Assembly (NCBI GenBank): GCA_021208605.1
Contig: JAJOJK010000017.1
Span: 17,872-81,871 of the forward strand
Direction: 5' to 3'
DNA length: 64,000 nt
From: Candidatus Woesebacteria bacterium
GTDB lineage: Bacteria; Patescibacteriota; Microgenomatia; UBA1400; UBA1396
In this document: positions 9,669 to 16,784 of the stretch, piece by piece
How the letters are laid out: the number at the start of each line of letters is the position of its first letter
Numbering within the stretch: the first letter of the stretch is position 1
Translations under genes and position numbers: made by a program
The notes under the pieces: model-generated
Seen by the model: the letters and a program-made list of their open reading frames with translations, nothing else
Database searches by the model: none
What the model was told of the DNA's origin: nothing

Positions 9669-10088
9669 TTACTTCGTTAAATCAATAAATTGCACACCTT
9701 CAAAAAAAAGCTTTACTGCAGCTGCATGACCAGGAAGAACTTCTTGTAAATGAGCTGGATCAAACCACTCCCAACCCTCACATTTTCCTGGTTCACAAAG
9801 TGTCACTTCTTGATCATGAACCTCTGCTTGAAAAACAAAATGTACGAAATCATATGCATCTTGGTTTTCACGAACGATACCTAGAAATGTGAAATCTAGG
9901 CCTGTTAGTCCGGTTTCCTCCATTACCTCACGAGAGATAGCATTAGTCACTTTTTCATTCAACTCAATTCTTCCACCTGGCAAACCGTAGAAACCTGCTT
10001 TATAGCTATTCTTTCTCTTTCCAAGCAGAATTTCATTCTTTGAATTGGTAAGTACAGCACAAGTGCCAATTGGTTGATGTTTGCTCAT
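9669..10088 (-). CDS. NUDIX hydrolase (1 of 3 in the window)
   Basis: Nudix box GLPGGRIELNEKVTNAISREVMEETGL. Start refined to MSKHQ, placed 6 nt after TATAAT (leaderless). Confidence 0.75.
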   Translation of the reverse strand: MSKHQPIGTCAVLTNSKNEILLGKRKNSYKAGFYGLPGGRIELNEKVTNAISREVMEETGLTGLDFTFLGIVRENQDAYDFVHFVFQAEVHDQEVTLCEPGKCEGWEWFDPAHLQEVLPGHAAAVKLFFEGVQFIDLTK

Positions 10089-10203
10089 ACAAGTATTATA
10101 TCGGTCAAAAAAGTTCCAATTTCGCACCACTATTTCCGCCATCCCCAGTTAACACTTACACCGCGTATGAAGAACGCATTTTTTCTCAAGGAAATGATGC
10201 TAC

Positions 10204-11163
10204 TCAATCTGCTGCATCGGGAAGTGACGTCATTGTTTTCCTACTGAGTATGTTAAAGAAATCCTGCCGAAACTGTGAGTCATCGATCTGGACCACGACA
10301 TCAGCATTCGTTTTTCCTACTTTATGTGGTCGTTTTTCAGCAACGCTCATGCCAAAAGTGTGTTCGCCTTGGGTTTCAATTACGAGATCCATTGCTTTTA
10401 AGGTAAAAGCATGTGGATTCAGTAAGTAGTATGCAGCGAGAGCATCGTATACGAGAATTCCGGTGGTACCTTCATCTGAAGTTAAACCGCCAAAAAAATG
10501 TTCCATCATGGGAATCAAGATTGATTGGAGTCTCTCATTCTGTACTTTTCGGAAATCATCGACCTGAAGAATGACTGTATTACACACGTCAAGTGGAACC
10601 AGGACTTTCTGAACTTCGGCCTGAAAAACGTCATCAGCTGCCTCGGGATCAACAAAAAAGTTGAACTCAGCAACGCGGTTTTTATTCCCAGGAACATCTA
10701 TCGCACCGCCCATGATTACCAGTTGTTTCACTTTGCTTGAAAATTGTGAATCGAGTTGTATTGCCCGAGCAACATTACTCAGTGGTCCAAGTGCTAAAAT
10801 TGTTATTTCCTCTGGATTGGCAGTAACCAACTCAACCATTTTCTCAGGTGCATTTTGGGTAAGTCTGCAATCAGTACTCGAGGTATCAAATCCCGCCATC
10901 CCAGATTCACCGTGTACTACTGCGGTAACAAGTTTTCGTTTCAATGGTTCGTCAAAACCAGAAAAGATTGGAACCGGAGAACCAATCAAATCAAGAATTG
11001 CCTGTGCGTTTCTTGTTACCTTTTCAATCGTGGCATTACCAGCAACGGTGGTGATAGCCAGTACCTCAAATTGATCTGACAGGAGTGTCATCAAAATGGC
11101 TAGGGCGTCATCGTGTCCTGGATCGGTGTCGATGATAAGTTTTGGTTTGTTGTTTATTTGCAT
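10204..11163 (-). CDS. inosine-uridine-preferring nucleoside hydrolase family
   Basis: N-terminal DTDPGHDDALAI aspartate cluster. About 320 aa. Confidence 0.8.
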   Translation of the reverse strand: MQINNKPKLIIDTDPGHDDALAILMTLLSDQFEVLAITTVAGNATIEKVTRNAQAILDLIGSPVPIFSGFDEPLKRKLVTAVVHGESGMAGFDTSSTDCRLTQNAPEKMVELVTANPEEITILALGPLSNVARAIQLDSQFSSKVKQLVIMGGAIDVPGNKNRVAEFNFFVDPEAADDVFQAEVQKVLVPLDVCNTVILQVDDFRKVQNERLQSILIPMMEHFFGGLTSDEGTTGILVYDALAAYYLLNPHAFTLKAMDLVIETQGEHTFGMSVAEKRPHKVGKTNADVVVQIDDSQFRQDFFNILSRKTMTSLPDAAD

Positions 11164-12290
11164 AGTTTCTCCATGAGCGTTGAGAAAAACTCAACTGTTC
11201 GTTGATAATTTTTGATTGGAATTCGTTCTACGTTGCTGTGCCCGGTTTTTCCAAGCCCGCCTCCGAACATTAGTGCTGAGGGCTGATCGTATTGTTGCCA
11301 CATCATTTGTAAATCTAGGTAGCCCGTGTCTTGAGGATCTGACCAAGCCGTTTTATTCGTAGTGGGAACTATCTTTTCTATATCAGTTTTGGGTGTTATC
11401 CAAGCAGAGTAGTCATGTGTGATTTGCATGACTTCGAATTCAATCCTGTTCTTTGATGCAATATCACTCAGTTGCTTTTGTATAAACTGTGCCGTTACTT
11501 TCGGATTAGCCGGCCTGATATCAATCACACATTCACAAATATCTGGAATGATATTTCCGGCTTGGCCAACTTCTGTCAAAAATTCTCTTTGTAACGAGTC
11601 AGCCTTTTTCTGGCCACCAAAAATATAAGCTAAGTTTAAGCTCGTTTTTCCTAACTCAACGCTAGTTTGAGCATCTAAGATTTCCTTGAGAATAGCAACT
11701 AATCTGAATGTAGCATCAATTGCATTTCTTCCGTTCCCTTTGGCAGCGTGTCCAGACTTCCCAAAGACGCGAAGGCGTAACTCAATTAATCCGCGACAAG
11801 CATAGCCAACTTGGAGATCTGATCCATCTGCAGAAATGATTCTTTGTGGTTTTAGATCAGGGTACTCTTTTAAGAAACCCTTCATTCCCAGAAAGTCATA
11901 TTCCTCGTCGGCATACAGAACGATCCAAAAGTTATTAGCCTGAGGATTGTTTCGAGCTGCTAACAGCAAAGCAGCTAAACCAGATTTCATATCTGAGGCA
12001 CCGCGTCCCCAGATTTCACCGCCTTTCTCAATTGCTTGGCGCTGACTGGAGTCACTCGGTGCTACAGTATCCGTGTGTGCAAGAAAGAGAGTATCTGGAT
12101 TGCCTTTTTTGATGATGAGATTATATCGATCATTCCCAAGTGGTTGTTTTTCAATAGTTGCTGTCAACGTGTTTGCTACCCATTCTTCAATGTAATTCAC
12201 TAATTTTGTTTCATTTATACCCTGCTGATCATCAACATAGGAGGGTATTTCTATGAGTTGCTTGAGGAGTTCTATGGCTTCGTTGTTCAT
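11154..12290 (-). CDS. M20 family metallopeptidase (ArgE/DapE-like), paralog 1
   Basis: HTDTV, GRGASDMKSG, ADEEYDF. Overlaps its neighbours, so it is in an operon. Confidence 0.8.
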   Translation of the reverse strand: MNNEAIELLKQLIEIPSYVDDQQGINETKLVNYIEEWVANTLTATIEKQPLGNDRYNLIIKKGNPDTLFLAHTDTVAPSDSSQRQAIEKGGEIWGRGASDMKSGLAALLLAARNNPQANNFWIVLYADEEYDFLGMKGFLKEYPDLKPQRIISADGSDLQVGYACRGLIELRLRVFGKSGHAAKGNGRNAIDATFRLVAILKEILDAQTSVELGKTSLNLAYIFGGQKKADSLQREFLTEVGQAGNIIPDICECVIDIRPANPKVTAQFIQKQLSDIASKNRIEFEVMQITHDYSAWITPKTDIEKIVPTTNKTAWSDPQDTGYLDLQMMWQQYDQPSALMFGGGLGKTGHSNVERIPIKNYQRTVEFFSTLMEKLCK

Positions 12291-12958
12291 ACCATACCTT
12301 TCTTTTTTAATACATTGAGAGCACTGACAATATCAGGAGCAATAAAGTCCGCTTGAGTTTGCGCGTGTTTGGCAATTCGCAGAGTTTTCATCCCAATTTC
12401 TTTTGCCGGGAGGATGTCGGATTGCTCCTGGTCACCTATGGCTAAAATGGCTTTTGGTTCCAGGTTCCAATACTGTGCTAATTGGAGAAAAGCTGCAGGA
12501 TTGGGTTTACGGAGGTCAGATTCTCCAGTAAAGATTGCCTCGCCAAACAGGGATCGAATTTGAAGGAAATCCAATACTTTTTCGGTCCAAACTTGAGGAG
12601 CAGCGGTCAGTAGGCCGGCGCGTACGGATAACCCGGAGAGCAGCTGTGCTAAGGAATCGTTGTACTGCAGAAACCGTTCTGCGGGAACATTCCAAGTAGC
12701 AGCAAAGTATTCGTTTCGTGAGACGCCGAGCTCTTTTTCACAGGCAAGACTGATGTGCCCAGCATATTGCTTTTGAAGCTCCAGATACTTTTTTTCTGCA
12801 TCGTTTGCGGAAAGTGCACATTGTTTTTGTAAAAATGACAAAATATTAGCTCGAATGCACTGGCCAAACTGAGAAGATGCAAATGCACTCTCTTCGTTGT
12901 CATCAAATGCATAGAGAGTGCCATCCATGTCAAAAATGATGGCTTGGATTGTAGACAT
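12287..12958 (-). CDS. HAD superfamily hydrolase (phosphatase)
   Basis: FDMDGTLY (DxDGT) motif. Start MSTIQAI has SD GGAGG. The listed longer ORF reads through the leader and terminator. Confidence 0.75.
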   Translation of the reverse strand: MSTIQAIIFDMDGTLYAFDDNEESAFASSQFGQCIRANILSFLQKQCALSANDAEKKYLELQKQYAGHISLACEKELGVSRNEYFAATWNVPAERFLQYNDSLAQLLSGLSVRAGLLTAAPQVWTEKVLDFLQIRSLFGEAIFTGESDLRKPNPAAFLQLAQYWNLEPKAILAIGDQEQSDILPAKEIGMKTLRIAKHAQTQADFIAPDIVSALNVLKKKGMV

Positions 12959-12987
12959 ATGTATTCCTCCGTATTTCCTTTCTCCAT

Positions 12988-13010
12988 AAAAAAACCTCCC
13001 TTGCGGGAGG
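12988..13010 (-). terminator. intrinsic terminator/attenuator hairpin immediately upstream of the HAD gene RBS
   Basis: Minus-strand CCTCCC-GCAA-GGGAGG followed by T7, and then GGAGAAAGGAAAUACGGAGG...AUG of the HAD gene. Confidence 0.7.
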
Positions 13011-13038
13011 TTGCTCTTGTAGTTTCTTTTCTTGCTTT

Positions 13039-13110
13039 TTACGGCATCACCAACAAACACCTCCCAGGGCGGTTAAACCAGAAATGATGGTGCATGTTGT
13101 TGGTTTGCAT
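13039..13110 (-). CDS. putative leaderless leader peptide uORF, 23 aa: MQTNNMHHHFWFNRPGRCLLVMP
   Basis: AUG 7 nt after TATACT. Stop UAA at 13041..13039. A paralogous uORF sits in copy 2. Translation is unproven. Confidence 0.3.
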   Translation of the reverse strand: MQTNNMHHHFWFNRPGRCLLVMP

Positions 13111-13157
13111 TGAAGGGAGTATATCATAGTATTTTTTTGGCTTATACTCTAAGGAGT

Positions 13158-13706
13158 ATGCAGCTCCTTCCAGAATTTCCTGATCGCTATTGGCTGAAGT
13201 TTTCCGAAGAACCGGTTGAGATCGTGCCGTATGATGCGCAGGCAAAAACCTTCGCCGCCGAGTATGAGCAAAAATTACAAGACTTGCTGAAAGAGTATCC
13301 GGTGCAGATCTATCACCGCGGATCGACTGCACTAGAGATTGCTGGCAAGGGTGACATCGAAATTGGGGTGATTCCCGATCCAGAATATTGGTTTGAAATT
13401 ATTGTGTTTTTAGCGCAACAATTTCAAGGTTTGGGAAATCTAGACGAAGAATATGCGCGGTTCAATGATGTCAAAGACGGATTTGACATCGAAATTATAC
13501 TCATGCGCGGATACACTGCACTTCTCGATAGGCGTTTGCATGACTTTTTGCGTGGGAACGCATCTTTGCTGCAGGAATACGAACGGATAAAAAAGGAATT
13601 TTGTTTTTCGCAGCGTGAGTATAATCGGCAGAAGGATGTTTTTTTTCGTAAGGTGATAACTCAGATTCCTGAATATTCGCGCTGGGCAACAAGTTCCGAT
13701 TTTTAG
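13158..13706 (+). CDS. GrpB family protein (nucleotidyltransferase-like)
   Basis: HRGSTALEIAGKGDIEIGV and the general GrpB/UPF0157 pattern. Start MQLLPEF has SD TAAGGAGT. Confidence 0.5.
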   Translation: MQLLPEFPDRYWLKFSEEPVEIVPYDAQAKTFAAEYEQKLQDLLKEYPVQIYHRGSTALEIAGKGDIEIGVIPDPEYWFEIIVFLAQQFQGLGNLDEEYARFNDVKDGFDIEIILMRGYTALLDRRLHDFLRGNASLLQEYERIKKEFCFSQREYNRQKDVFFRKVITQIPEYSRWATSSDF

Positions 13707-13746
13707 TCCTCTTTGCCCCTATCCGTCAACGAAAACCAAGATACAA

Positions 13747-14367
13747 TTGAAAACTATGTCTCACGAATCAGCTCGAAAAATGTGGAATAGCGATGCACCA
13801 AACTGGGTTGATCACCAGCATCTTGGGAGTATTGCTCCGGTAATAGAATCCTTTATTTGCAGGCATTCTGCACAAGTATTGCAGGTGACGCCGCGCAACT
13901 CACGAATAGTTGATCTCGGAACGGGAGCTAATACAAAAGCGTATTTTCCTGCTTCTGCTCACCCGAGAATTATTGGCCTTGATTTCTCCAGTGAGATGCT
14001 ACGACTCAATCCGCTGCCGCAAAAGACTGTGGCAGAGATGTCAGCACCTCTCCCATTCGCAAGGGAATCTTTTGGGCTCGTAACTTCTTTTTTGGCCTGG
14101 AGATATTTGAGTTCAGAAGAGCATGCGGCTCTTATTCAAGAAATGTACAGAGTTCTTTTGCCATACGGAACTGTCCTGCTTATTGATTTACTGAAAAACA
14201 ACTGGGAGCATCAGAAGTCAGAATTTTCACCTGACTGGAATGCACAACACCTCCGCACTGCCGGATTTAGCGTGCGTACTGCTTCCACCGAGAACGTACG
14301 ATCTCCATTAGGATATACACTGCGCTACACAGCGGAGCTGGGAGTAGTAGTGGCTCGCAAAGCGTAA
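13747..14367 (+). CDS. class I SAM-dependent methyltransferase
   Basis: VDLGTGAN motif I, acidic motif II GLDFS, and PYGTVLLID. Confidence 0.55.
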   Translation: MKTMSHESARKMWNSDAPNWVDHQHLGSIAPVIESFICRHSAQVLQVTPRNSRIVDLGTGANTKAYFPASAHPRIIGLDFSSEMLRLNPLPQKTVAEMSAPLPFARESFGLVTSFLAWRYLSSEEHAALIQEMYRVLLPYGTVLLIDLLKNNWEHQKSEFSPDWNAQHLRTAGFSVRTASTENVRSPLGYTLRYTAELGVVVARKA

Positions 14368-14397
14368 AAGGGAATATTTCTCTGGTTTATTTGTGGG

Positions 14398-14598
14398 CTA
14401 CGGTTGACTCTTAATTCTCCGAATAGTGTGCCGATTGATCCAGGATTCATCTACGTAGAGATCAAGGCCATCCTCAGTTTCAAGCCGGACTAACAGTGTA
14501 TTGCGATCAGCAAGAGTTCCAAAGCCTGTTTTGTATGGTGTTGTGAGTGGTAGGGCAACTTCCAACAAATCTGTTCTGACTATTTTTGAATTACGCAT
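14398..14598 (-). pseudogene. truncated N-terminal remnant of an enolase-superfamily (MR/MLE, dipeptide epimerase-like) gene
   Basis: MRNSKIVRTDLLEVALPLTTPYKTGFGTLADRNTLLVRLETEDGLDLYVDESW matches the MR/MLE N-terminal domain pattern but stops after about 67 aa. The ATG overlaps the M20 stop (ATGCGTAA). Confidence 0.5.
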
Positions 14599-15703
14599 AC
14601 ATTTCTTCCTCCACATCCCGCAAAAACCTCCGCAGTCCCTCATAAAACGCCATCGTCGATTCTACATCCAGCCACTCGCTTTCCATATGAATATCTCCAC
14701 CGTGGGGTTTAATCATGAGAATTGGTATGTCAAATGCCGCAAAGTGTCTGGCATCCGAACCGCCATGGGTGGGTTTGATTTGTATCTTTTGCTGGTGCGT
14801 TGTTTCCAGTACTGCCAGGAATTTTTTAACGATCGGGAGTTCCGGATCGGTGGCAGTTGGAAGACCAGTTGCCAGCGGTGAGAAAGTGACCCGATTTTGG
14901 AAAGGTTCACACATTTCTGTGAGTTCATCCACTATGCGCTCGAAGCTGTCGGTTTCTGGATAGCGGAAATCAATCTGCAGGGTAGCACTGTCACAGACTT
15001 GGTTTGTGGAAATGCCGCCAGAAATTTTTCCAAAGTTCACGGTAGTTACCCAGCCTTCGGTGGCGTTATTGGCAGCGTAGCGTTTTTCTAACTTAGTTAT
15101 AATATGAGCCAGTGGAGTGATGGCATTTTCCCCATCCCAGAGTCTGGAAGCATGCGCTGATGTTCCAGTTGACTCAACCACAAATTGCGCCACACCCTTG
15201 GAGGCATGAACAAACTGAAGATTGTCACCACCATCAGGCACAATCAGTACTTTTGGTCGCCATTGTGCGGTTTCTGCCAGGTGCGCCGCGCCGTCAAGGC
15301 CGCCGATTTCTTCGTCAGTAGTAACAACGAATGAGAATTGAAGCGGGCTCTTGTTTTCGATCAATTCGTTCAGGAGGGCAATGCCGAGTGGAATTGAAAA
15401 CTTCATGTCGCTCACCCCACGGCCAAAGATCTTGTTTTCTTGCTGAGTCATGGTGAACATTTTTTCAGATGCCGCTACGACATCAACGTGCACGAGATAT
15501 CCGATATCTGGTTGCAGTGTGTCTGAATTACTGGCAATGAGTATTTTTGCTTTAGCATTTTCAATGACTCGTACGTTTGCTTGCGGCGAGAGCAGCGTGC
15601 GAATATATTCGATTGCCTGTTGATTCGCAGTCGTGTCAGCGGTGACTGTGGGGATAGCTACCAAGTCTGATAGCTGATGCAAAAATGTATCTTTGTGTAA
15701 CAT
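14591..15703 (-). CDS. M20 family metallopeptidase, paralog 2
   Basis: HVDVV, GRGVSDMK, TTDEE. Start MLHKD with SD GGAGAAAGGA. Confidence 0.8.
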   Translation of the reverse strand: MLHKDTFLHQLSDLVAIPTVTADTTANQQAIEYIRTLLSPQANVRVIENAKAKILIASNSDTLQPDIGYLVHVDVVAASEKMFTMTQQENKIFGRGVSDMKFSIPLGIALLNELIENKSPLQFSFVVTTDEEIGGLDGAAHLAETAQWRPKVLIVPDGGDNLQFVHASKGVAQFVVESTGTSAHASRLWDGENAITPLAHIITKLEKRYAANNATEGWVTTVNFGKISGGISTNQVCDSATLQIDFRYPETDSFERIVDELTEMCEPFQNRVTFSPLATGLPTATDPELPIVKKFLAVLETTHQQKIQIKPTHGGSDARHFAAFDIPILMIKPHGGDIHMESEWLDVESTMAFYEGLRRFLRDVEEEMYA

Positions 15704-15716
15704 ATTTCCTTTCTCC

Positions 15717-15744
15717 AAAAAAAAACCTCCCAGGTGGGAGGTGG
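15717..15744 (-). terminator. intrinsic terminator/attenuator hairpin immediately upstream of the M20-2 RBS
   Basis: Minus-strand CCACCUCCC-ACCU-GGGAGGUGG followed by T9, then GGAGAAAGGAAAUAUG. Confidence 0.7.
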
Positions 15745-15771
15745 ATTCTTGTTTCTTTTTGTTCTATTGCA

Positions 15772-15837
15772 CTACAAACAAGCACCTCCGCGGGTGGTCA
15801 TAAACCAAATAAGGGCGTAGCAGTTGTTTGTATGCAT
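15772..15837 (-). CDS. putative leaderless leader peptide uORF, 21 aa: MHTNNCYALIWFMTTRGGACL
   Basis: Same -10/N7/AUG geometry as copy 1. The peptides share M-x-T-N-N, WF and C-L positions. Confidence 0.3.
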   Translation of the reverse strand: MHTNNCYALIWFMTTRGGACL

Positions 15838-15920
15838 TGTGGGGAGTATAGCACAGTAGTTACGCGTTCAAAATGAAAACATATCCGGATTTGTAAGCGT
15901 TATTGTATAATACACAACTT

Positions 15921-16784
15921 ATGAGAAAGGTAGAATCCCAATTTTCAGTTGTGGTGCCAGTATCAAATGACTTATCCGTGAGGGAATATGCAAAGAGTGT
16001 TTCTAGTGCGCGTGAATTTGATTCTACTGAGCATGTGTTTGTTCAAAATGGCGTGAGTGATGCTGTTCGGCAAATAACGGATGAATTTGCTAATGACTAT
16101 TCCAACCATCGGAATATACAAATACTGGAAAAGGGAATTCAAATCTCTAGAAACATAGGTATATCTCAAACGAGCTGTGAATGGATTGTTAATTTAGATT
16201 CTGATGTACAAGTGAATCGTCGTTTCTTTGAGGCACTGCGTATCGCTATTGAAGAAAATCCTGGAGTAGAAGTTTTGGTTCCGCGTTTGTTGAGAGATGA
16301 GGGACAGAGTTTCTTACAGAGAATGACTTCAGCGCATTTTACAAACCTCTCTCGTCGACCTAAACCGCCGGTGCACAATCCAGGACTTGTGGTGAGGCGG
16401 ACCGTGTATGAGGATGTTGGATTACTAGATACGCGATTTAAAAACGGAAATGACAATGATTTTAAGCGGAGAATTAAGGGAAAGAAGACTATAAATGTAC
16501 CGGGTGCTGTGGTTTTTCATAAAGCAGATCCAGACGCAAAACTCATGAAACAGCATTTCAAGTATGGTCGCGACCGATCACGAATATCCCGTCATGGTCA
16601 CCCAGAAGATAGAAAAGCCATTTTAGGAGATAGGATAAGTAAAACGCTTTTATTCCCAAAATTTATTCAGTTTTTACCTTATGGTTTCAAAGTGGCCAGC
16701 TACGAAACAGTACTCGGTTTTATTTCAGCGGCTGGGTTTTGGTATCAAGAAGGAATGCGTATTTTAGGTAAGGAGTTGTTGTGA
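15921..16784 (+). CDS. glycosyltransferase family 2
   Basis: VVVPVSND and a DSD (DxD) motif. Start MRKVESQ lies 9 nt after TATAAT. Confidence 0.7.
   Translation: MRKVESQFSVVVPVSNDLSVREYAKSVSSAREFDSTEHVFVQNGVSDAVRQITDEFANDYSNHRNIQILEKGIQISRNIGISQTSCEWIVNLDSDVQVNRRFFEALRIAIEENPGVEVLVPRLLRDEGQSFLQRMTSAHFTNLSRRPKPPVHNPGLVVRRTVYEDVGLLDTRFKNGNDNDFKRRIKGKKTINVPGAVVFHKADPDAKLMKQHFKYGRDRSRISRHGHPEDRKAILGDRISKTLLFPKFIQFLPYGFKVASYETVLGFISAAGFWYQEGMRILGKELL

What the first reader, a model, noticed from the sequence alone, without database searches (positions are those of the whole stretch)
15704..15853. Second, homologous copy of the attenuator leader in front of the paralogous M20 peptidase
Same parts in the same order and spacing: TGTGcTATACT, N7, AUG at 15837, a 21-codon ORF (MHTNNCYALIWFMTTRGGACL), the helix TGCA.TACAAACAA / TTGTTTGTA.GTGCA, an A-rich spacer, and CCACCUCCC-ACCU-GGGAGGUGG-U9 ending at the RBS GGAGAAAGGAAAUAUG. 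The two copies align over about 150 nt. Conserved blocks are UAUACUCCC, CAAUGCA, ACAACAAC, UUUGGUUUA, CC.CCC..GGAGGUG, GAAAC, and the region from the terminator through GGAGAAAGGAAAUA. Helix partners change in a compensatory way (ACCAACAA versus UACAAACAA, with matching changes on the 3' strand). The peptides keep M-x-T-N-N, WF and C-L. A duplicated regulated module (peptidase plus leader) is the simplest explanation. The preserved helix despite substitutions argues for RNA-level function.
Basis: seen in the sequence. Interest (0 to 1): 0.8.

Follow-up and report, generated by a model that had tools for sequence, protein, structure and literature searches.

The report
Leaderless leader-peptide attenuator in Woesebacteria
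The two look-alike 150-nt stretches are copies of an amino-acid-sensing "leader peptide" transcription attenuator, a classic bacterial switch not reported so far in the little-known CPR/Patescibacteria bacteria, where it controls a scavenging peptidase and a nucleotide-salvage operon.

Summary
Window 15853-15704 (-) and 13126-12972 (-) align at 76% identity. Both have a TGnTATACT box, N7, an ATG, a 21/23-codon ORF, a long hairpin, an A-rich spacer and a CCUCCC/GGGAGG-U(7-9) terminator.

It is a ribosome-mediated, trp-type transcription attenuator whose leader ORF probably starts at the 5' end of a leaderless transcript.

- **Conservation:** The same leader sits upstream of orthologous M20 peptidases, HAD-RihC operons and hisC in many other Patescibacteria genomes.
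- **Mechanism class:** In sister leaders, the leader-peptide composition predicts the downstream gene. Met-rich leaders precede MetRS and Phe-rich ones PheRS. Aromatic-rich ones precede DAHP or DHQ synthase, Ser-rich ones SerA/B, and Cys-rich ones a BshB-like deacetylase.
- **Window type:** The window copies are His/aromatic type (HHHFWF; Y..WF).
- **Alternative pairings:** The 1:2, 2:3 and 3:4 helices are supported by covariation and permutation tests.

"Duplicated peptidase+leader module" is not. The two M20s are 27% identical, copy 1 directly precedes a HAD hydrolase, and each copy is closer to leaders in other genomes than to the other copy.

No Rfam family matches. Leaderless leader-peptide attenuators are already known in Actinobacteria, so this is a new member of a known kind in an unexplored phylum.

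The parts
15845..15853 (-). Copy 2: extended -10 promoter element TGcTATACT, 7 nt before the leader ATG. No SD in between, so the transcript is probably leaderless.
   Evidence: Sequence. A -10 box 5-10 nt before the leader ATG occurs in 35/51 related leaders, against 3.4% of all ATGs. An SD-like 4-mer lies upstream of 1/51 leader ATGs.
15772..15837 (-). Copy 2: leader ORF of 21 codons plus stop, MHTNNCYALIWFMTTRGGACL*. Putative sensing codons are Tyr (15819-15817) and Trp-Phe (15807-15802).
   Evidence: Orthologous ORFs are present in L005/L043, L007/L062, L008/L061, L006, L092-L095 and L103.
15813..15836 (-). Copy 2: region 1, the 5' strand of the big hairpin. It lies inside the ORF, from codon 1 to about codon 8.
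   Evidence: MFE fold. Helix covariation on 23 sequences: 83% of cells paired against 39-54% in slid controls.
15768..15789 (-). Copy 2: region 2, GGAGGUGCUUGUUUGUAGUGCA. It is the 3' strand of the hairpin (anti-antiterminator partner). It also copies the terminator's 3' arm, so GGAGGUG can pair with CACCUCC as the antiterminator. It contains the ORF stop at 15774-15772.
   Evidence: (CCUCC pairs with region 2 in 51/51 leaders when region 1 is masked and the 3' arm is absent).
15717..15744 (-). Copy 2: regions 3 and 4, the intrinsic terminator CCACCUCCC-ACCU-GGGAGGU-U9.
15701..15716 (-). Copy 2: SD GGAGAAAGGA and the ATG of the regulated gene.
14591..15703 (-). Regulated gene of copy 2: M20 (ArgE/DapE-like) metallopeptidase, 370 aa.
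   Evidence: Pfam PF01546 and PF07687; NCBIfam; PDB 2rb7 is the best match.
13118..13126 (-). Copy 1: extended -10 element TGaTATACT, 7 nt before the leader ATG.
13039..13110 (-). Copy 1: leader ORF of 23 codons plus stop, MQTNNMHHHFWFNRPGRCLLVMP*. Sensing codons His-His-His-Phe-Trp-Phe are at 13092-13075.
   Evidence: It uses the same frame and motif (..HH..W[YF]..P.GRC..) as the hisC and HAD-RihC leaders of other genomes.
13044..13065 (-). Copy 1: region 2, GGGAGGUGUUUGUUGGUGAUGC. It is the hairpin 3' strand and the antiterminator strand.
12988..13012 (-). Copy 1: intrinsic terminator AACCUCCC-GCAA-GGGAGGUU-U7.
12972..12985 (-). Copy 1: block GGAGAAAGGAAATA, identical to copy 2's RBS but not used as the RBS here. 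The HAD gene has its own GGAGG at 12970-12966 and its ATG at 12958.
9669..12958 (-). Operon regulated by copy 1: HAD hydrolase (pyrimidine 5'-nucleotidase-like, 12958-12287), M20 paralogue (12290-11154), RihC-like nucleoside hydrolase (11163-10204), and probably NUDIX (10142-9669).
   Evidence: The overlapping stop and start codons are seen directly in the coordinates.

Best explanation
Each copy is a ribosome-mediated (trp/his/phe-operon type) transcription attenuator.

Proposed mechanism:
1. Transcription starts at an extended -10 promoter about 7 nt upstream of an AUG that has no Shine-Dalgarno. The leader ORF is therefore probably translated from a leaderless 5' end (inferred).
2. The 21-23-codon ORF runs through region 1 (the 5' strand of a long hairpin). 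It ends inside or just after region 2 (the 3' strand, containing GGGAGGU).
3. Region 2 duplicates the 3' arm of the downstream terminator. It can therefore pair either with region 1 or with the terminator's 5' arm (CACCUCCC, region 3).
4. When charged tRNAs are plentiful, the ribosome reaches the stop codon and covers region 2. With no translation at all, regions 1 and 2 pair instead. In both cases the 3:4 terminator forms and transcription stops before the peptidase or HAD operon.
5. When the ribosome stalls at hungry codons in the middle of the ORF, it masks region 1. These codons are His-His-His-Phe-Trp-Phe in copy 1 and Tyr..Trp-Phe in copy 2, possibly also the conserved Asn-Asn. Region 2 is then free to pair with region 3 before region 4 is made, and RNA polymerase reads through.

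The two window leaders belong to a His/aromatic-type family found across Microgenomates-like Patescibacteria. Members precede hisC, M20 peptidases and nucleotidase/nucleoside-hydrolase operons. The output is induction of salvage enzymes on amino-acid starvation.

Shown: the anatomy, conservation, alternative pairings, and the codon-to-gene correspondence across the class. Inferred: the transcription start, translation of the ORF, and which amino acids are sensed.
For: 1. The leader is conserved upstream of orthologous M20 genes (48-82% leader identity). It occurs in 25 loci at 58-132 bits with a covariance model, and only twice in the window.
2. Every conserved leader keeps an ATG-initiated ORF of about 15-30 codons. 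The stop lies 12-26 nt past the start of GGAGG in nearly all of them.
3. Peptide composition predicts gene function in sister leaders with the same platform:
 - MKTLNNSKLMMVMMMQNL and MTIRKLTNSMMEMMMS.. precede MetRS.
 - ..TFFFFT.. and ..LFFEFYF.. precede PheRS-alpha.
 - F/Y-rich leaders precede DAHP synthase (twice).
 - YWFYFGTF precedes dehydroquinate synthase.
 - FSPS(L/S)SS precedes SerA/SerB.
 - CCC and C x5 leaders precede a BshB/MshB-like PIG-L deacetylase.
 - ..SMCMS.. precedes homocysteine methyltransferase.
 - THHNAWYY precedes hisC (TIGR01141, above cutoff).

4. M20-linked leaders found by protein homology rather than by motif are also His/aromatic-rich. Examples are MLTNWSTHHHFFHYPNYGEG and ..NNWHHDHLLH..YWH...
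5. A -10 box lies 5-10 nt before the ATG in 35/51 leaders, against 3.4% background. An SD is present in 1/51 leaders, against 36/51 downstream genes.
6. Structure:
 - The 1:2 hairpin has 83% paired cells against 39-54% in slid controls, 10 pairs changed on both sides, and a covariation score of 0.217 against 0.169 in shuffles (0/500).
 - With 18 diverse representatives, native 1:2 and 2:3 duplexes beat non-native combinations (6 and 3 of 20000 permutations). The 1:3 control does not.
 - L094 has a different terminator (ACACCC/GGGUGU), and its region 2 has changed to match (CGAAGGG:CCCUUCG).
7. State-dependent folding:
 - The terminator forms in 39/51 full-length MFE folds.
 - The terminator forms in 51/51 when a ribosome sits at the stop codon.
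 - The antiterminator forms in 51/51 when region 1 is masked and the 3' arm is not yet made.
8. In ten ungapped hisC leaders, codons 2-17 vary most at third positions, with synonymous His, Asn, Ala and Pro changes. Region 2 varies least at third positions, and it is read in two different frames across the family.
Against: - There are no transcript 5'-end, translation or read-through data for any member.
- Copy 2's peptide carries only single His, Tyr, Trp and Phe codons. Its F+W+Y+H enrichment alone is not significant (4/20, p = 0.17; copy 1 is 6/22, p = 0.03). The identity of the sensed amino acid in the window rests on family-level conservation.
- The M20 substrate is unknown, and the link between His/aromatic supply and a nucleotidase/nucleoside-hydrolase operon is only rationalised.
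- With region 1 masked, the thermodynamic MFE of both window copies still prefers the terminator. Antitermination must therefore be kinetic.
- In an ungapped register, the antiterminator extends only 1-2 bp beyond the GGAGG:CCUCC core, no more in native than in non-native pairs.
- The GTDB set was collected with a motif that fixed GGAGG/CCUCC/GGAGG, so the universality of that platform is a selection effect.
- The sigma-70 scan found no good -35 box at 16-18 nt spacing.
Confidence: 0.8

Rival explanations
1. A metabolite-binding riboswitch. The long hairpin with its conserved internal and apical loops (UGGUUUA..ACC.CCC..GGGAGGUG) would be an aptamer whose ligand decides between terminator and antiterminator. 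The ORF would be incidental.
For: The hairpin is stable and conserved, with covariation. The region-2 nucleotides are conserved although they are read in two frames. The regulated genes are hydrolases of nucleotide and peptide salvage, a typical riboswitch context.
Against: - No Rfam family matches, even at E <= 10. The only hits are sub-threshold Phe and His leader-peptide models.
- The ORF is retained in every member, with a fixed stop position.
- Codons 2-17 show third-position variation with His, Asn, Ala and Pro retained.
- Sister leaders swap the 'loop' sequence for runs of Met, Phe, Ser or Cys codons that match the downstream enzyme. A single aptamer cannot explain this.
Confidence: 0.05
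2. A nascent-peptide arrest element (TnaC/SecM-like). The conserved peptide motif ([HY]..W[FY]..) would stall the ribosome from inside the exit tunnel, perhaps on binding a free amino acid such as Trp. Stalling would not come from lack of charged tRNA. The same RNA switch would follow.
For: A specific motif is conserved, not just composition: N-N..H-H..W-[YF]. There is mostly a single Trp codon. From memory, TnaC also contains K-W-F-N. This rival uses the same alternative structures as the main model.
Against: - The motif's conservation can be explained by common descent within one family.
- The sister leaders have classic homopolymeric runs matched to aaRS and biosynthetic genes, which is the signature of codon-supply sensing.
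- The C-terminal part of the peptide is not conserved as protein, since two frames are used.
- Logic also argues against it. Stalling induced by a free amino acid would switch a scavenging peptidase ON when the amino acid is abundant.
Confidence: 0.08
3. A factor-dependent attenuator. A protein (TRAP/PyrR/ribosomal-protein-like) or an uncharged tRNA (T-box-like) would bind the leader hairpin and control the terminator.
For: Many Gram-positive amino-acid and aaRS genes use such systems. The leader has a conserved structured domain.
Against: There is no T-box or other Rfam hit. There are no repeated triplet or binding-site arrays in the sequence. This rival explains neither the conserved ORF nor the match between peptide composition and gene.
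Confidence: 0.03
4. A recent in-genome duplication of a peptidase-plus-leader module. The similarity would reflect recency rather than selection.
For: The block from the terminator to the RBS is 87% identical between the copies. GGAGAAAGGAAATA is retained in copy 1 although it is not used there as an RBS. Some intragenomic exchange of the 3' part is therefore plausible.
Against: The M20s are 27% identical. Copy 1 precedes a HAD gene. Each copy has closer relatives in other genomes, in front of the same kind of gene, than its partner in this genome. Another genome (UBA1396) also carries two family members, before M20 and before hisC (L062, L078).
Confidence: 0.04

Closest known systems
Classical enterobacterial leader-peptide attenuators (trpL, hisL, pheL/pheA, pheM-pheST, thrL, ilvL; Rfam RF00513, RF00514, RF01859 and others)
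   Same: Both have a short ORF with sensing codons, three alternative helices (1:2, 2:3, 3:4) and an intrinsic terminator before the first structural gene. The stop codon is placed so that a terminating ribosome blocks the antiterminator. aaRS genes can also be targets, as with pheST.
   Different: - There is no sequence or CM membership: 26 and 21 bits against the 55-bit Phe_leader threshold.
- There is no SD, and the ORF probably begins at the transcript's 5' end.
- The sensing codons are mixed (His, Trp, Phe, Tyr, possibly Asn) rather than one long run.
- The targets are salvage hydrolases and hisC, not a biosynthetic operon.
- The antiterminator strand lies inside the ORF.
Leaderless leader-peptide attenuators of Actinobacteria (Streptomyces lividans leuL, trpL, alaL, thrL, ilvL, metL; Corynebacterium glutamicum ilvB, trp, leu, aroF)
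   Same: The leader peptides are transcribed leaderless and followed by hairpins and a U-stretch, in front of amino-acid biosynthesis, transport and aaRS genes. Some have a single sensing codon, such as TrpL2 (PMC8079986). In C. glutamicum ilvB, the first hairpin includes the start region and acts as an anti-antiterminator (PMC11857589), as helix 1 does here.
   Different: The phylum is different (Patescibacteria) and the sequences are unrelated. Here the terminator and antiterminator are built from an SD / anti-SD-like GGGAGG/CCUCCC triplet. In 12/51 relatives the terminator arm doubles as the gene's SD. The regulated genes include an M20 peptidase and a nucleotidase/nucleoside-hydrolase operon.
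Mycobacterial leaderless poly-Cys sORF attenuators (the 'Cys ribulon')
   Same: Both are leaderless sensory sORFs. Several loci in one genome share one amino-acid signal, forming a ribosome-directed regulon (10.1101/834739). The CPR Cys-rich leaders before PIG-L deacetylases (L027, L048) are a direct parallel.
   Different: The mycobacterial elements act by unmasking the downstream RBS, which is translational. The window elements carry a canonical intrinsic terminator well upstream of an independent SD, so they should act on transcription.

Membership tests
Ribosome-mediated (leader-peptide) transcription attenuators | A short ORF in the leader, conserved as an ORF across relatives | tested here: met
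   A 15-30-codon ATG ORF is present in all conserved leaders. This includes nine found through M20 homology alone. Third-position variation with retained residues is seen in codons 2-17.
Ribosome-mediated (leader-peptide) transcription attenuators | Sensing codons that correspond to the amino acid connected with the regulated genes | tested here: inconclusive
   This is met clearly for sister leaders: Met to MetRS, Phe to PheRS, aromatic to DAHPS/DHQS, Ser to SerA/B, His/aromatic to hisC. For the window copies the codons are His, Phe, Trp and Tyr, but the substrates of the M20 and HAD-RihC enzymes are unknown. Copy 2's enrichment is weak.
Ribosome-mediated (leader-peptide) transcription attenuators | Mutually exclusive helices 1:2, 2:3 (antiterminator) and 3:4 (terminator), with region 1 inside the ORF | tested here: met
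   The antiterminator is short, at 7 bp in both window copies.
Ribosome-mediated (leader-peptide) transcription attenuators | An intrinsic terminator between the leader ORF and the first structural gene | tested here: met
   Stems of 7-8 bp with 5 G-C pairs, followed by U7-U9.
Ribosome-mediated (leader-peptide) transcription attenuators | The ORF is translated, and read-through responds to amino-acid or charged-tRNA supply | not testable with these tools
   This needs Term-seq or dRNA-seq, ribosome profiling or reporter assays.
Rfam Phe_leader (RF01859) / His_leader (RF00514) | Covariance-model score at or above the gathering threshold | tested here: not met
   26.3 and 21.3 bits against 55 for Phe_leader, and 18.2 against 49 for His_leader. 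There are no gathering-level hits in the window apart from tRNAs.
Leaderless leader peptides (Actinobacteria-type architecture) | The transcription start coincides with the leader AUG | tested here: inconclusive
   This is only inferred. A -10 box lies 5-10 nt upstream in 35/51 leaders against 3.4% background. An extended -10 with N7 spacing is present in both window copies, and the SD is absent in 50/51. There are no 5'-end data.
Riboswitch | A conserved ligand-binding core that is independent of coding capacity, or a match to a known aptamer class | tested here: not met
   There is no Rfam match. The 'core' is replaced by different codon runs in sister leaders. The 5' half shows a coding-type substitution pattern.
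T-box leader | Specifier loop, T-box sequence and a match to the Rfam T-box model | tested here: not met
   No hit at E <= 10 in 12800-16000.

The most novel reading that the evidence does not exclude
Patescibacteria have almost no described regulators and few biosynthetic pathways. They may run a phylum-wide 'ribulon' network of leaderless sensory mini-ORFs built on one SD / anti-SD-mimic switch (GGGAGG / CCUCCC / GGGAGG). In this network, stalled ribosomes would directly set expression of aaRSs, residual biosynthetic steps and host-derived-nutrient salvage enzymes (M20 peptidase, nucleotidase, nucleoside hydrolase, ribokinase).

Under this reading, the His/aromatic leader with its invariant Asn-Asn..Trp core would be a multi-amino-acid starvation sensor, or a TnaC-like arrest peptide, rather than a single-amino-acid attenuator. 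The leaders could then be used to read out which nutrients limit these uncultured episymbionts and what the unknown enzymes do.
Probability: 0.2. Interest if true: 0.7.

Novelty: new member of a known kind. Interest (0 to 1): 0.5.

Why it matters
Gene regulation in the Candidate Phyla Radiation is essentially uncharted. Three full-text searches found no paper that links these bacteria with leader peptides or transcription attenuation.

These leaders give a sequence-only way to assign physiological signals to genes of unknown role. A 'DapE/ArgE-like' M20 peptidase and a nucleotidase/nucleoside-hydrolase operon appear to be switched on by shortage of His and aromatic aminoacyl-tRNAs, together with hisC. 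This suggests they supply amino acids and ribose from scavenged peptides and nucleotides.

The wider class (Met, Phe, Ser, Cys and aromatic leaders before aaRS and pathway genes) shows that transcription-translation coupling and intrinsic termination probably operate in CPR. It also adds to the evidence that leaderless sensory ORFs are an old and widespread design.

The mechanism itself is textbook, so the conceptual surprise is moderate.

Tried and rejected
- **Rfam:** Searched at gathering and at E <= 10. Only tRNAs and sub-threshold leader models were found.
- **Promoter scan:** The sigma-70 consensus scan did not flag the leader promoters, because they lack a -35 box at 16-18 nt spacing. 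Only the extended -10 is visible.
- **RNAalifold:** Run on the MAFFT alignment, it gave a fragmentary consensus (-6.5 kcal/mol). The terminators of the sub-families are offset by 1-2 columns. I used per-sequence folds mapped to columns instead.
- **Antiterminator pair count:** My first structure string was mis-registered by one column, so that result is void. The +1 slide gives 78% paired. The CM alignment has the same offset, so I relied on duplex-energy permutations and on L094.
- **Ungapped anchored extension:** The antiterminator shows no excess over non-native pairs. Covariation beyond the core is therefore modest.
- **Clustering:** Clustering with difflib, or at 60% identity, left too few representatives (9 and 2) for a meaningful permutation test.
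- **Metagenome scan:** The scan with the M20 alignment returned mostly distant paralogues. Only about 12 of 80 loci were orthologues.
- **Other attenuators in the window:** The only other terminator before a gene (3497-3471, minus strand) is the ordinary terminator of the preceding gene. The CM finds just the two copies.
- **'Recent module duplication':** Considered and rejected.
Full report
**1. What is in the sequence**

The finding lies on the minus strand. Reading 5' to 3', copy 2 consists of:
- TGcTATACT at 15853-15845, then 7 nt, then ATG at 15837.
- A 21-codon ORF, MHTNNCYALIWFMTTRGGACL*, ending at 15772.
- A long hairpin whose 5' strand (15836-15813) lies in the first third of the ORF. 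Its 3' strand (15789-15768, GGAGGUGCUUGUUUGUAGUGCA) contains the stop codon.
- An A-rich spacer.
- A terminator, ACCUCCC-ACCU-GGGAGGU plus U9, at 15742-15717.
- GGAGAAAGGAAAUAUG, ending at the start of a 370-aa M20 peptidase (15703-14591).

The hairpin folds at -39.7 kcal/mol (z = -3.0). The terminator is picked up by two independent scans.

The other copy is at 13126-12972:
- TGaTATACT, N7, then ATG at 13110.
- A 23-codon ORF, MQTNNMHHHFWFNRPGRCLLVMP*.
- The same hairpin (-44.8 kcal/mol for the whole leader).
- A terminator at 13012-12988.
- The same GGAGAAAGGAAATA block.

The two align at 118/155 (76%). The score is far above shuffles, at 160 against a maximum of 36. Identity is 69% across the ORF and hairpin part, so the resemblance is not just promoter plus terminator.

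- The terminator's 3' arm is GGGAGGU, not GGGAGGUGG.
- Copy 1 is followed directly by a HAD hydrolase, with the M20 paralogue second.
- A 2-nt indel after UGGUUUA puts the 3' halves of the two ORFs in different frames.

**2. Genomic context**

The window comes from a Candidatus Woesebacteria MAG (Patescibacteria/CPR).

Copy 2 controls a single M20 (ArgE/DapE-like) gene. Copy 1 controls an operon with overlapping stop and start codons:
- A HAD hydrolase whose best sub-threshold NCBIfam matches include a pyrimidine 5'-nucleotidase model.
- A second M20.
- A RihC-like nucleoside hydrolase.
- Probably a NUDIX hydrolase.

Both leaders are transcribed divergently from their upstream neighbours. The terminators therefore cannot belong to a preceding gene.

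The two M20 proteins share only 27% identity.

**3. Conservation elsewhere**

I fetched DNA around M20 orthologues of 55-75% identity. The same leader was present in four other CPR genomes (L005-L008).

I then ran a motif scan of one genome per GTDB species with GGAGGYNYNYG-N28-58-CCTCC-N4-9-GGAGGTTTTT. It returned 78 loci. About 50 are clearly related elements, nearly all in Patescibacteria. Several 'uncultured Pseudomonadales' titles sit on contigs that are evidently CPR.

A covariance model built from 23 members finds 25 strong family members (58-132 bits) in the fetched loci, and exactly two in the window.

The strong members precede three kinds of gene:
- M20 orthologues.
- HAD-RihC(-M20) operons like that of copy 1 (L041, L087).
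- Most often, hisC (TIGR01141, 283 bits, above the cutoff).

A protein-anchored metagenome scan added five more M20-linked leaders (L092-L095, L103).

In the ORF and hairpin part, copy 1 is 69-71% identical to the HAD-RihC-type leaders of other genomes but 61% to copy 2. Copy 2 is 82% identical to the leader of the orthologous M20 in L043. The copies are therefore old members of one regulon, not a recent 'peptidase + leader' duplication.

Only the segment from the terminator to the RBS is 87% identical within the genome. It includes an RBS-like block that copy 1 does not use. This hints at local homogenisation.

**4. Why it is a leader-peptide attenuator and not a riboswitch**

*The ORF is always there.* It is 15-30 codons long. 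Its stop falls 12-26 nt after the first G of GGAGG in almost every case.

*Peptide composition predicts the downstream enzyme.* In sister elements with the same switch but different peptides:

| Leader peptide feature | Downstream gene |
|---|---|
| Met runs (two loci) | Methionyl-tRNA synthetase |
| Phe runs (two loci) | PheRS-alpha |
| Phe/Tyr-rich (two loci) | DAHP synthase |
| YWFYFGTF | Dehydroquinate synthase |
| Ser-rich | SerA-SerB fusion |
| Cys-rich | BshB/MshB-like deacetylases |
| M-C-M | Homocysteine methyltransferase |
| T-H-H-x-A-W-Y-Y | hisC |

This correspondence is the hallmark of sensing through charged-tRNA supply. A single aptamer cannot produce it.

*The two halves evolve differently.* In ten ungapped hisC leaders, codons 2-17 vary most at third positions, with synonymous changes that keep Asn, His, Ala and Pro. 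The region-2 codons vary least at third positions. That region is also read in two frames across the family..GRC[VL]F.. against ..GGxC... The 5' half is therefore constrained as a peptide or codon string, and the 3' half as RNA.

*No known RNA family fits.* Rfam has no match. Only Phe and His leader models appear, far below threshold.

**5. The switch**

Region 2 carries a copy of the terminator's 3' arm. It can therefore pair with region 1 or with the terminator's 5' arm. In the window the pairings are GGAGGUG:CACCUCC for copy 2 and GGGAGGU:ACCUCCC for copy 1.

Evidence from the 23-sequence alignment:
- The 1:2 hairpin has 83% standard pairs, against 39-54% when partners are slid.
- Ten pairs are changed on both sides.
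- The covariation score is 0.217 against 0.169 +/- 0.008 in shuffles (0/500).

Evidence across 18 diverse representatives of the whole class:
- Native 1:2 and 2:3 duplexes are more stable than non-native combinations, reached in 6 and 3 of 20000 permutations.
- The 1:3 control is not.

L094 is an M20 leader found by protein homology. Its terminator is a different sequence (ACACCC...GGGUGU), and its region 2 has changed correspondingly (CGAAGGG pairs with CCCUUCG).

Folding under different ribosome positions behaves as the model requires:
- The terminator forms in 39/51 full-length MFE structures.
- The terminator forms in 51/51 when the ribosome sits at the stop codon.
- The antiterminator forms in 51/51 when region 1 is masked and the 3' arm is not yet transcribed.

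There are caveats. For the two window copies the terminator remains the thermodynamic optimum even with region 1 masked, so the decision must be kinetic. In an ungapped register the antiterminator extends only 1-2 bp beyond the core.

On geometry, the Trp codon of copy 2 is nt 31-33 of the ORF and GGAGG starts at nt 49. A ribosome paused there would cover region 1 and leave region 2 free.

**6. Leaderless start (inferred)**

Both window leaders have TGnTATACT exactly 7 nt before the AUG, with no purine-rich SD.

Across 51 leaders:
- 35 have a -10 box matching at least 5 of 6 positions, 5-10 nt upstream. The mode is 7 nt. The rate is 3.4% for all ATGs and 21.6% for the first ATGs of long ORFs.
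- Only 1 has an SD-like tetramer upstream, against 36/51 for the downstream genes.

In choosing among in-frame ATGs I preferred the one with a -10 box. This biases the count slightly.

The first helix includes the start codon. It would therefore also block late initiation, as argued for C. glutamicum ilvB (PMC11857589).

**7. What is sensed, and why these genes**

The family core is N-N..H-H..W-[YF]-[YF]. Copy 1 has HHHFWF and copy 2 has Y...WF. M20-linked leaders from unrelated lineages are likewise rich in His, Trp, Tyr and Phe. Examples are MLTNWSTHHHFFHYPNYGEG and MQNIFINTYFYSLWHHTSCLGRYLHRH.

The signal is most likely shortage of His and aromatic aminoacyl-tRNAs. This is solid for the family and weaker for copy 2 alone (p = 0.17).

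The rationale for the target genes is inference:
- hisC-type transaminases serve His and aromatic amino-acid synthesis.
- M20 enzymes would release amino acids from scavenged peptides or N-acyl amino acids.
 - In L005 and L008 the M20 is followed by an enolase-superfamily racemase/epimerase (MR_MLE).
 - In L009-L013 it sits next to a class Ib aaRS, TyrRS-like in L009-L011.
- Nucleotidase plus nucleoside hydrolase yield ribose, the precursor of PRPP (His, Trp) and erythrose-4-P. An aromatic-type leader also precedes a ribokinase-like PfkB gene in L057.

**8. Comparison with known systems**

Mechanistically this is the trp/his/phe attenuator design.

The closest described architecture is the leaderless leader peptides of Actinobacteria. 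They have hairpins and U-tracts and lie before biosynthetic and aaRS genes, and some have a single sensing codon (S. lividans; PMC8079986). The mycobacterial leaderless poly-Cys sORF 'ribulon' is similar but acts translationally (10.1101/834739).

The window elements are not members of any Rfam leader family.

Full-text searches found no report of leader peptides or attenuation in Patescibacteria, CPR or Saccharibacteria. That library is incomplete.

Verdict: a new member of a known kind, in a phylum where regulation is essentially undescribed.

**9. Rivals**

A riboswitch, an arrest peptide that senses a free ligand, a factor- or tRNA-dependent attenuator, and a recent module duplication were all considered. 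Each is given low probability for the reasons above. The arrest-peptide variant shares the same RNA switch and cannot be excluded without experiments.

**10. Scores**

- Confidence that this is a ribosome-mediated attenuator: about 0.8.
- Confidence that the signal is His/aromatic: about 0.6.
- Interest: 0.5. The mechanism is textbook, but the phylum is new, the regulated genes are new, and the elements have useful annotation power.

Noticed in passing
L030, L085, L053, L045, L019, L090, L024, L050/L065, L027/L048, L060 (leaders just upstream of the genes listed): Other Patescibacteria carry the same GGAGG/CCUCC/GGAGG-Un switch with different leader peptides. Met-, Phe-, aromatic-, Ser- and Cys-rich leaders precede MetRS, PheRS-alpha, DAHP synthase, dehydroquinate synthase, SerA-SerB, a BshB/MshB-like PIG-L deacetylase and homocysteine S-methyltransferase. 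This looks like a phylum-wide class of amino-acid attenuators.
   Followed up: partly
All 51 leaders, including window 15837-15772 and 13110-13039: Asn is strongly over-represented at residues 2-10 of the leader peptides, whatever their amino-acid type. It makes up 17% of residues against a 4.6% background, and NN occurs in 22/51. The sequences are related, so the statistic is inflated. It could reflect an A/CA-rich start that favours leaderless initiation, or Asn sensing. This is unexplained.
   Followed up: partly
Loci L014-L091 and the window: 21.6% of the first ATGs of long ORFs have a -10-like hexamer 5-10 nt upstream, against 3.4% of all ATGs. Leaderless mRNAs may be common in these CPR genomes.
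   Followed up: no
window 12972-12985 (-) versus 15703-15716 (-): GGAGAAAGGAAATA is identical in both copies. In copy 1 it is not the RBS: the HAD gene has its own GGAGG at 12970-12966 and its ATG at 12958. The 3' part of the leaders looks homogenised within the genome, while the 5' parts group with different orthologues.
   Followed up: partly
L041:5489-5632(-), L087:5244-5399(+), L083:3179-3328(-): In HAD-RihC-type loci of other genomes, the leader is followed by a conserved 48-52-aa ORF (MPEQLQNIFWM...ANP.FSHWLY). Next comes a roughly 293-318-aa protein with no Pfam or NCBIfam hit, before HAD and RihC. Both are absent from the window's copy-1 operon.
   Followed up: no
L057:2456-2570(-) and gene L057:1529-2452(-): An aromatic-rich leader (MNTYKTSNWYFFYFYFLNKRRSLL) precedes a ribokinase-like PfkB kinase. 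This links ribose salvage with the aromatic-type signal and fits the nucleotidase/nucleoside-hydrolase operon behind window copy 1.
   Followed up: partly
L094:881-1020: This M20-linked leader uses a non-CCUCC terminator (ACACCC..GGGUGU). Its in-ORF region 2 has changed to CGAAGGG, which pairs with CCCUUCG. It is a clean compensatory example for the antiterminator.
   Followed up: yes
12 of the 51 leaders, e.g. L024, L027, L050, L057: The terminator's 3' arm GGAGG lies 5-13 nt before the gene's ATG, so it doubles as the gene's SD. Those elements may attenuate transcription and translation at once. This may also explain why the switch is built from SD / anti-SD-like sequences. It is not the case in the window copies.
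   Followed up: partly
L009-L013 and L005, L008: M20 orthologues without a leader sit in operons next to a class Ib aaRS, TyrRS-like in L009-L011. Leader-bearing ones are often followed by an enolase-superfamily racemase/epimerase (MR_MLE). These are hints about the peptidase's substrate.
   Followed up: no
L090:2989-3106 and L055:6087-6208: Weak second covariance-model hits lie near the primary leaders. They could be tandem or additional attenuators. They were not examined.
   Followed up: no
Record titles of L014, L017, L018, L043 and others: Many TPA_asm MAG contigs titled 'uncultured Pseudomonadales/Gammaproteobacteria bacterium' carry typical CPR genes and leaders. L043 is the same contig as the CPR locus L005. 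These labels look unreliable.
   Followed up: no
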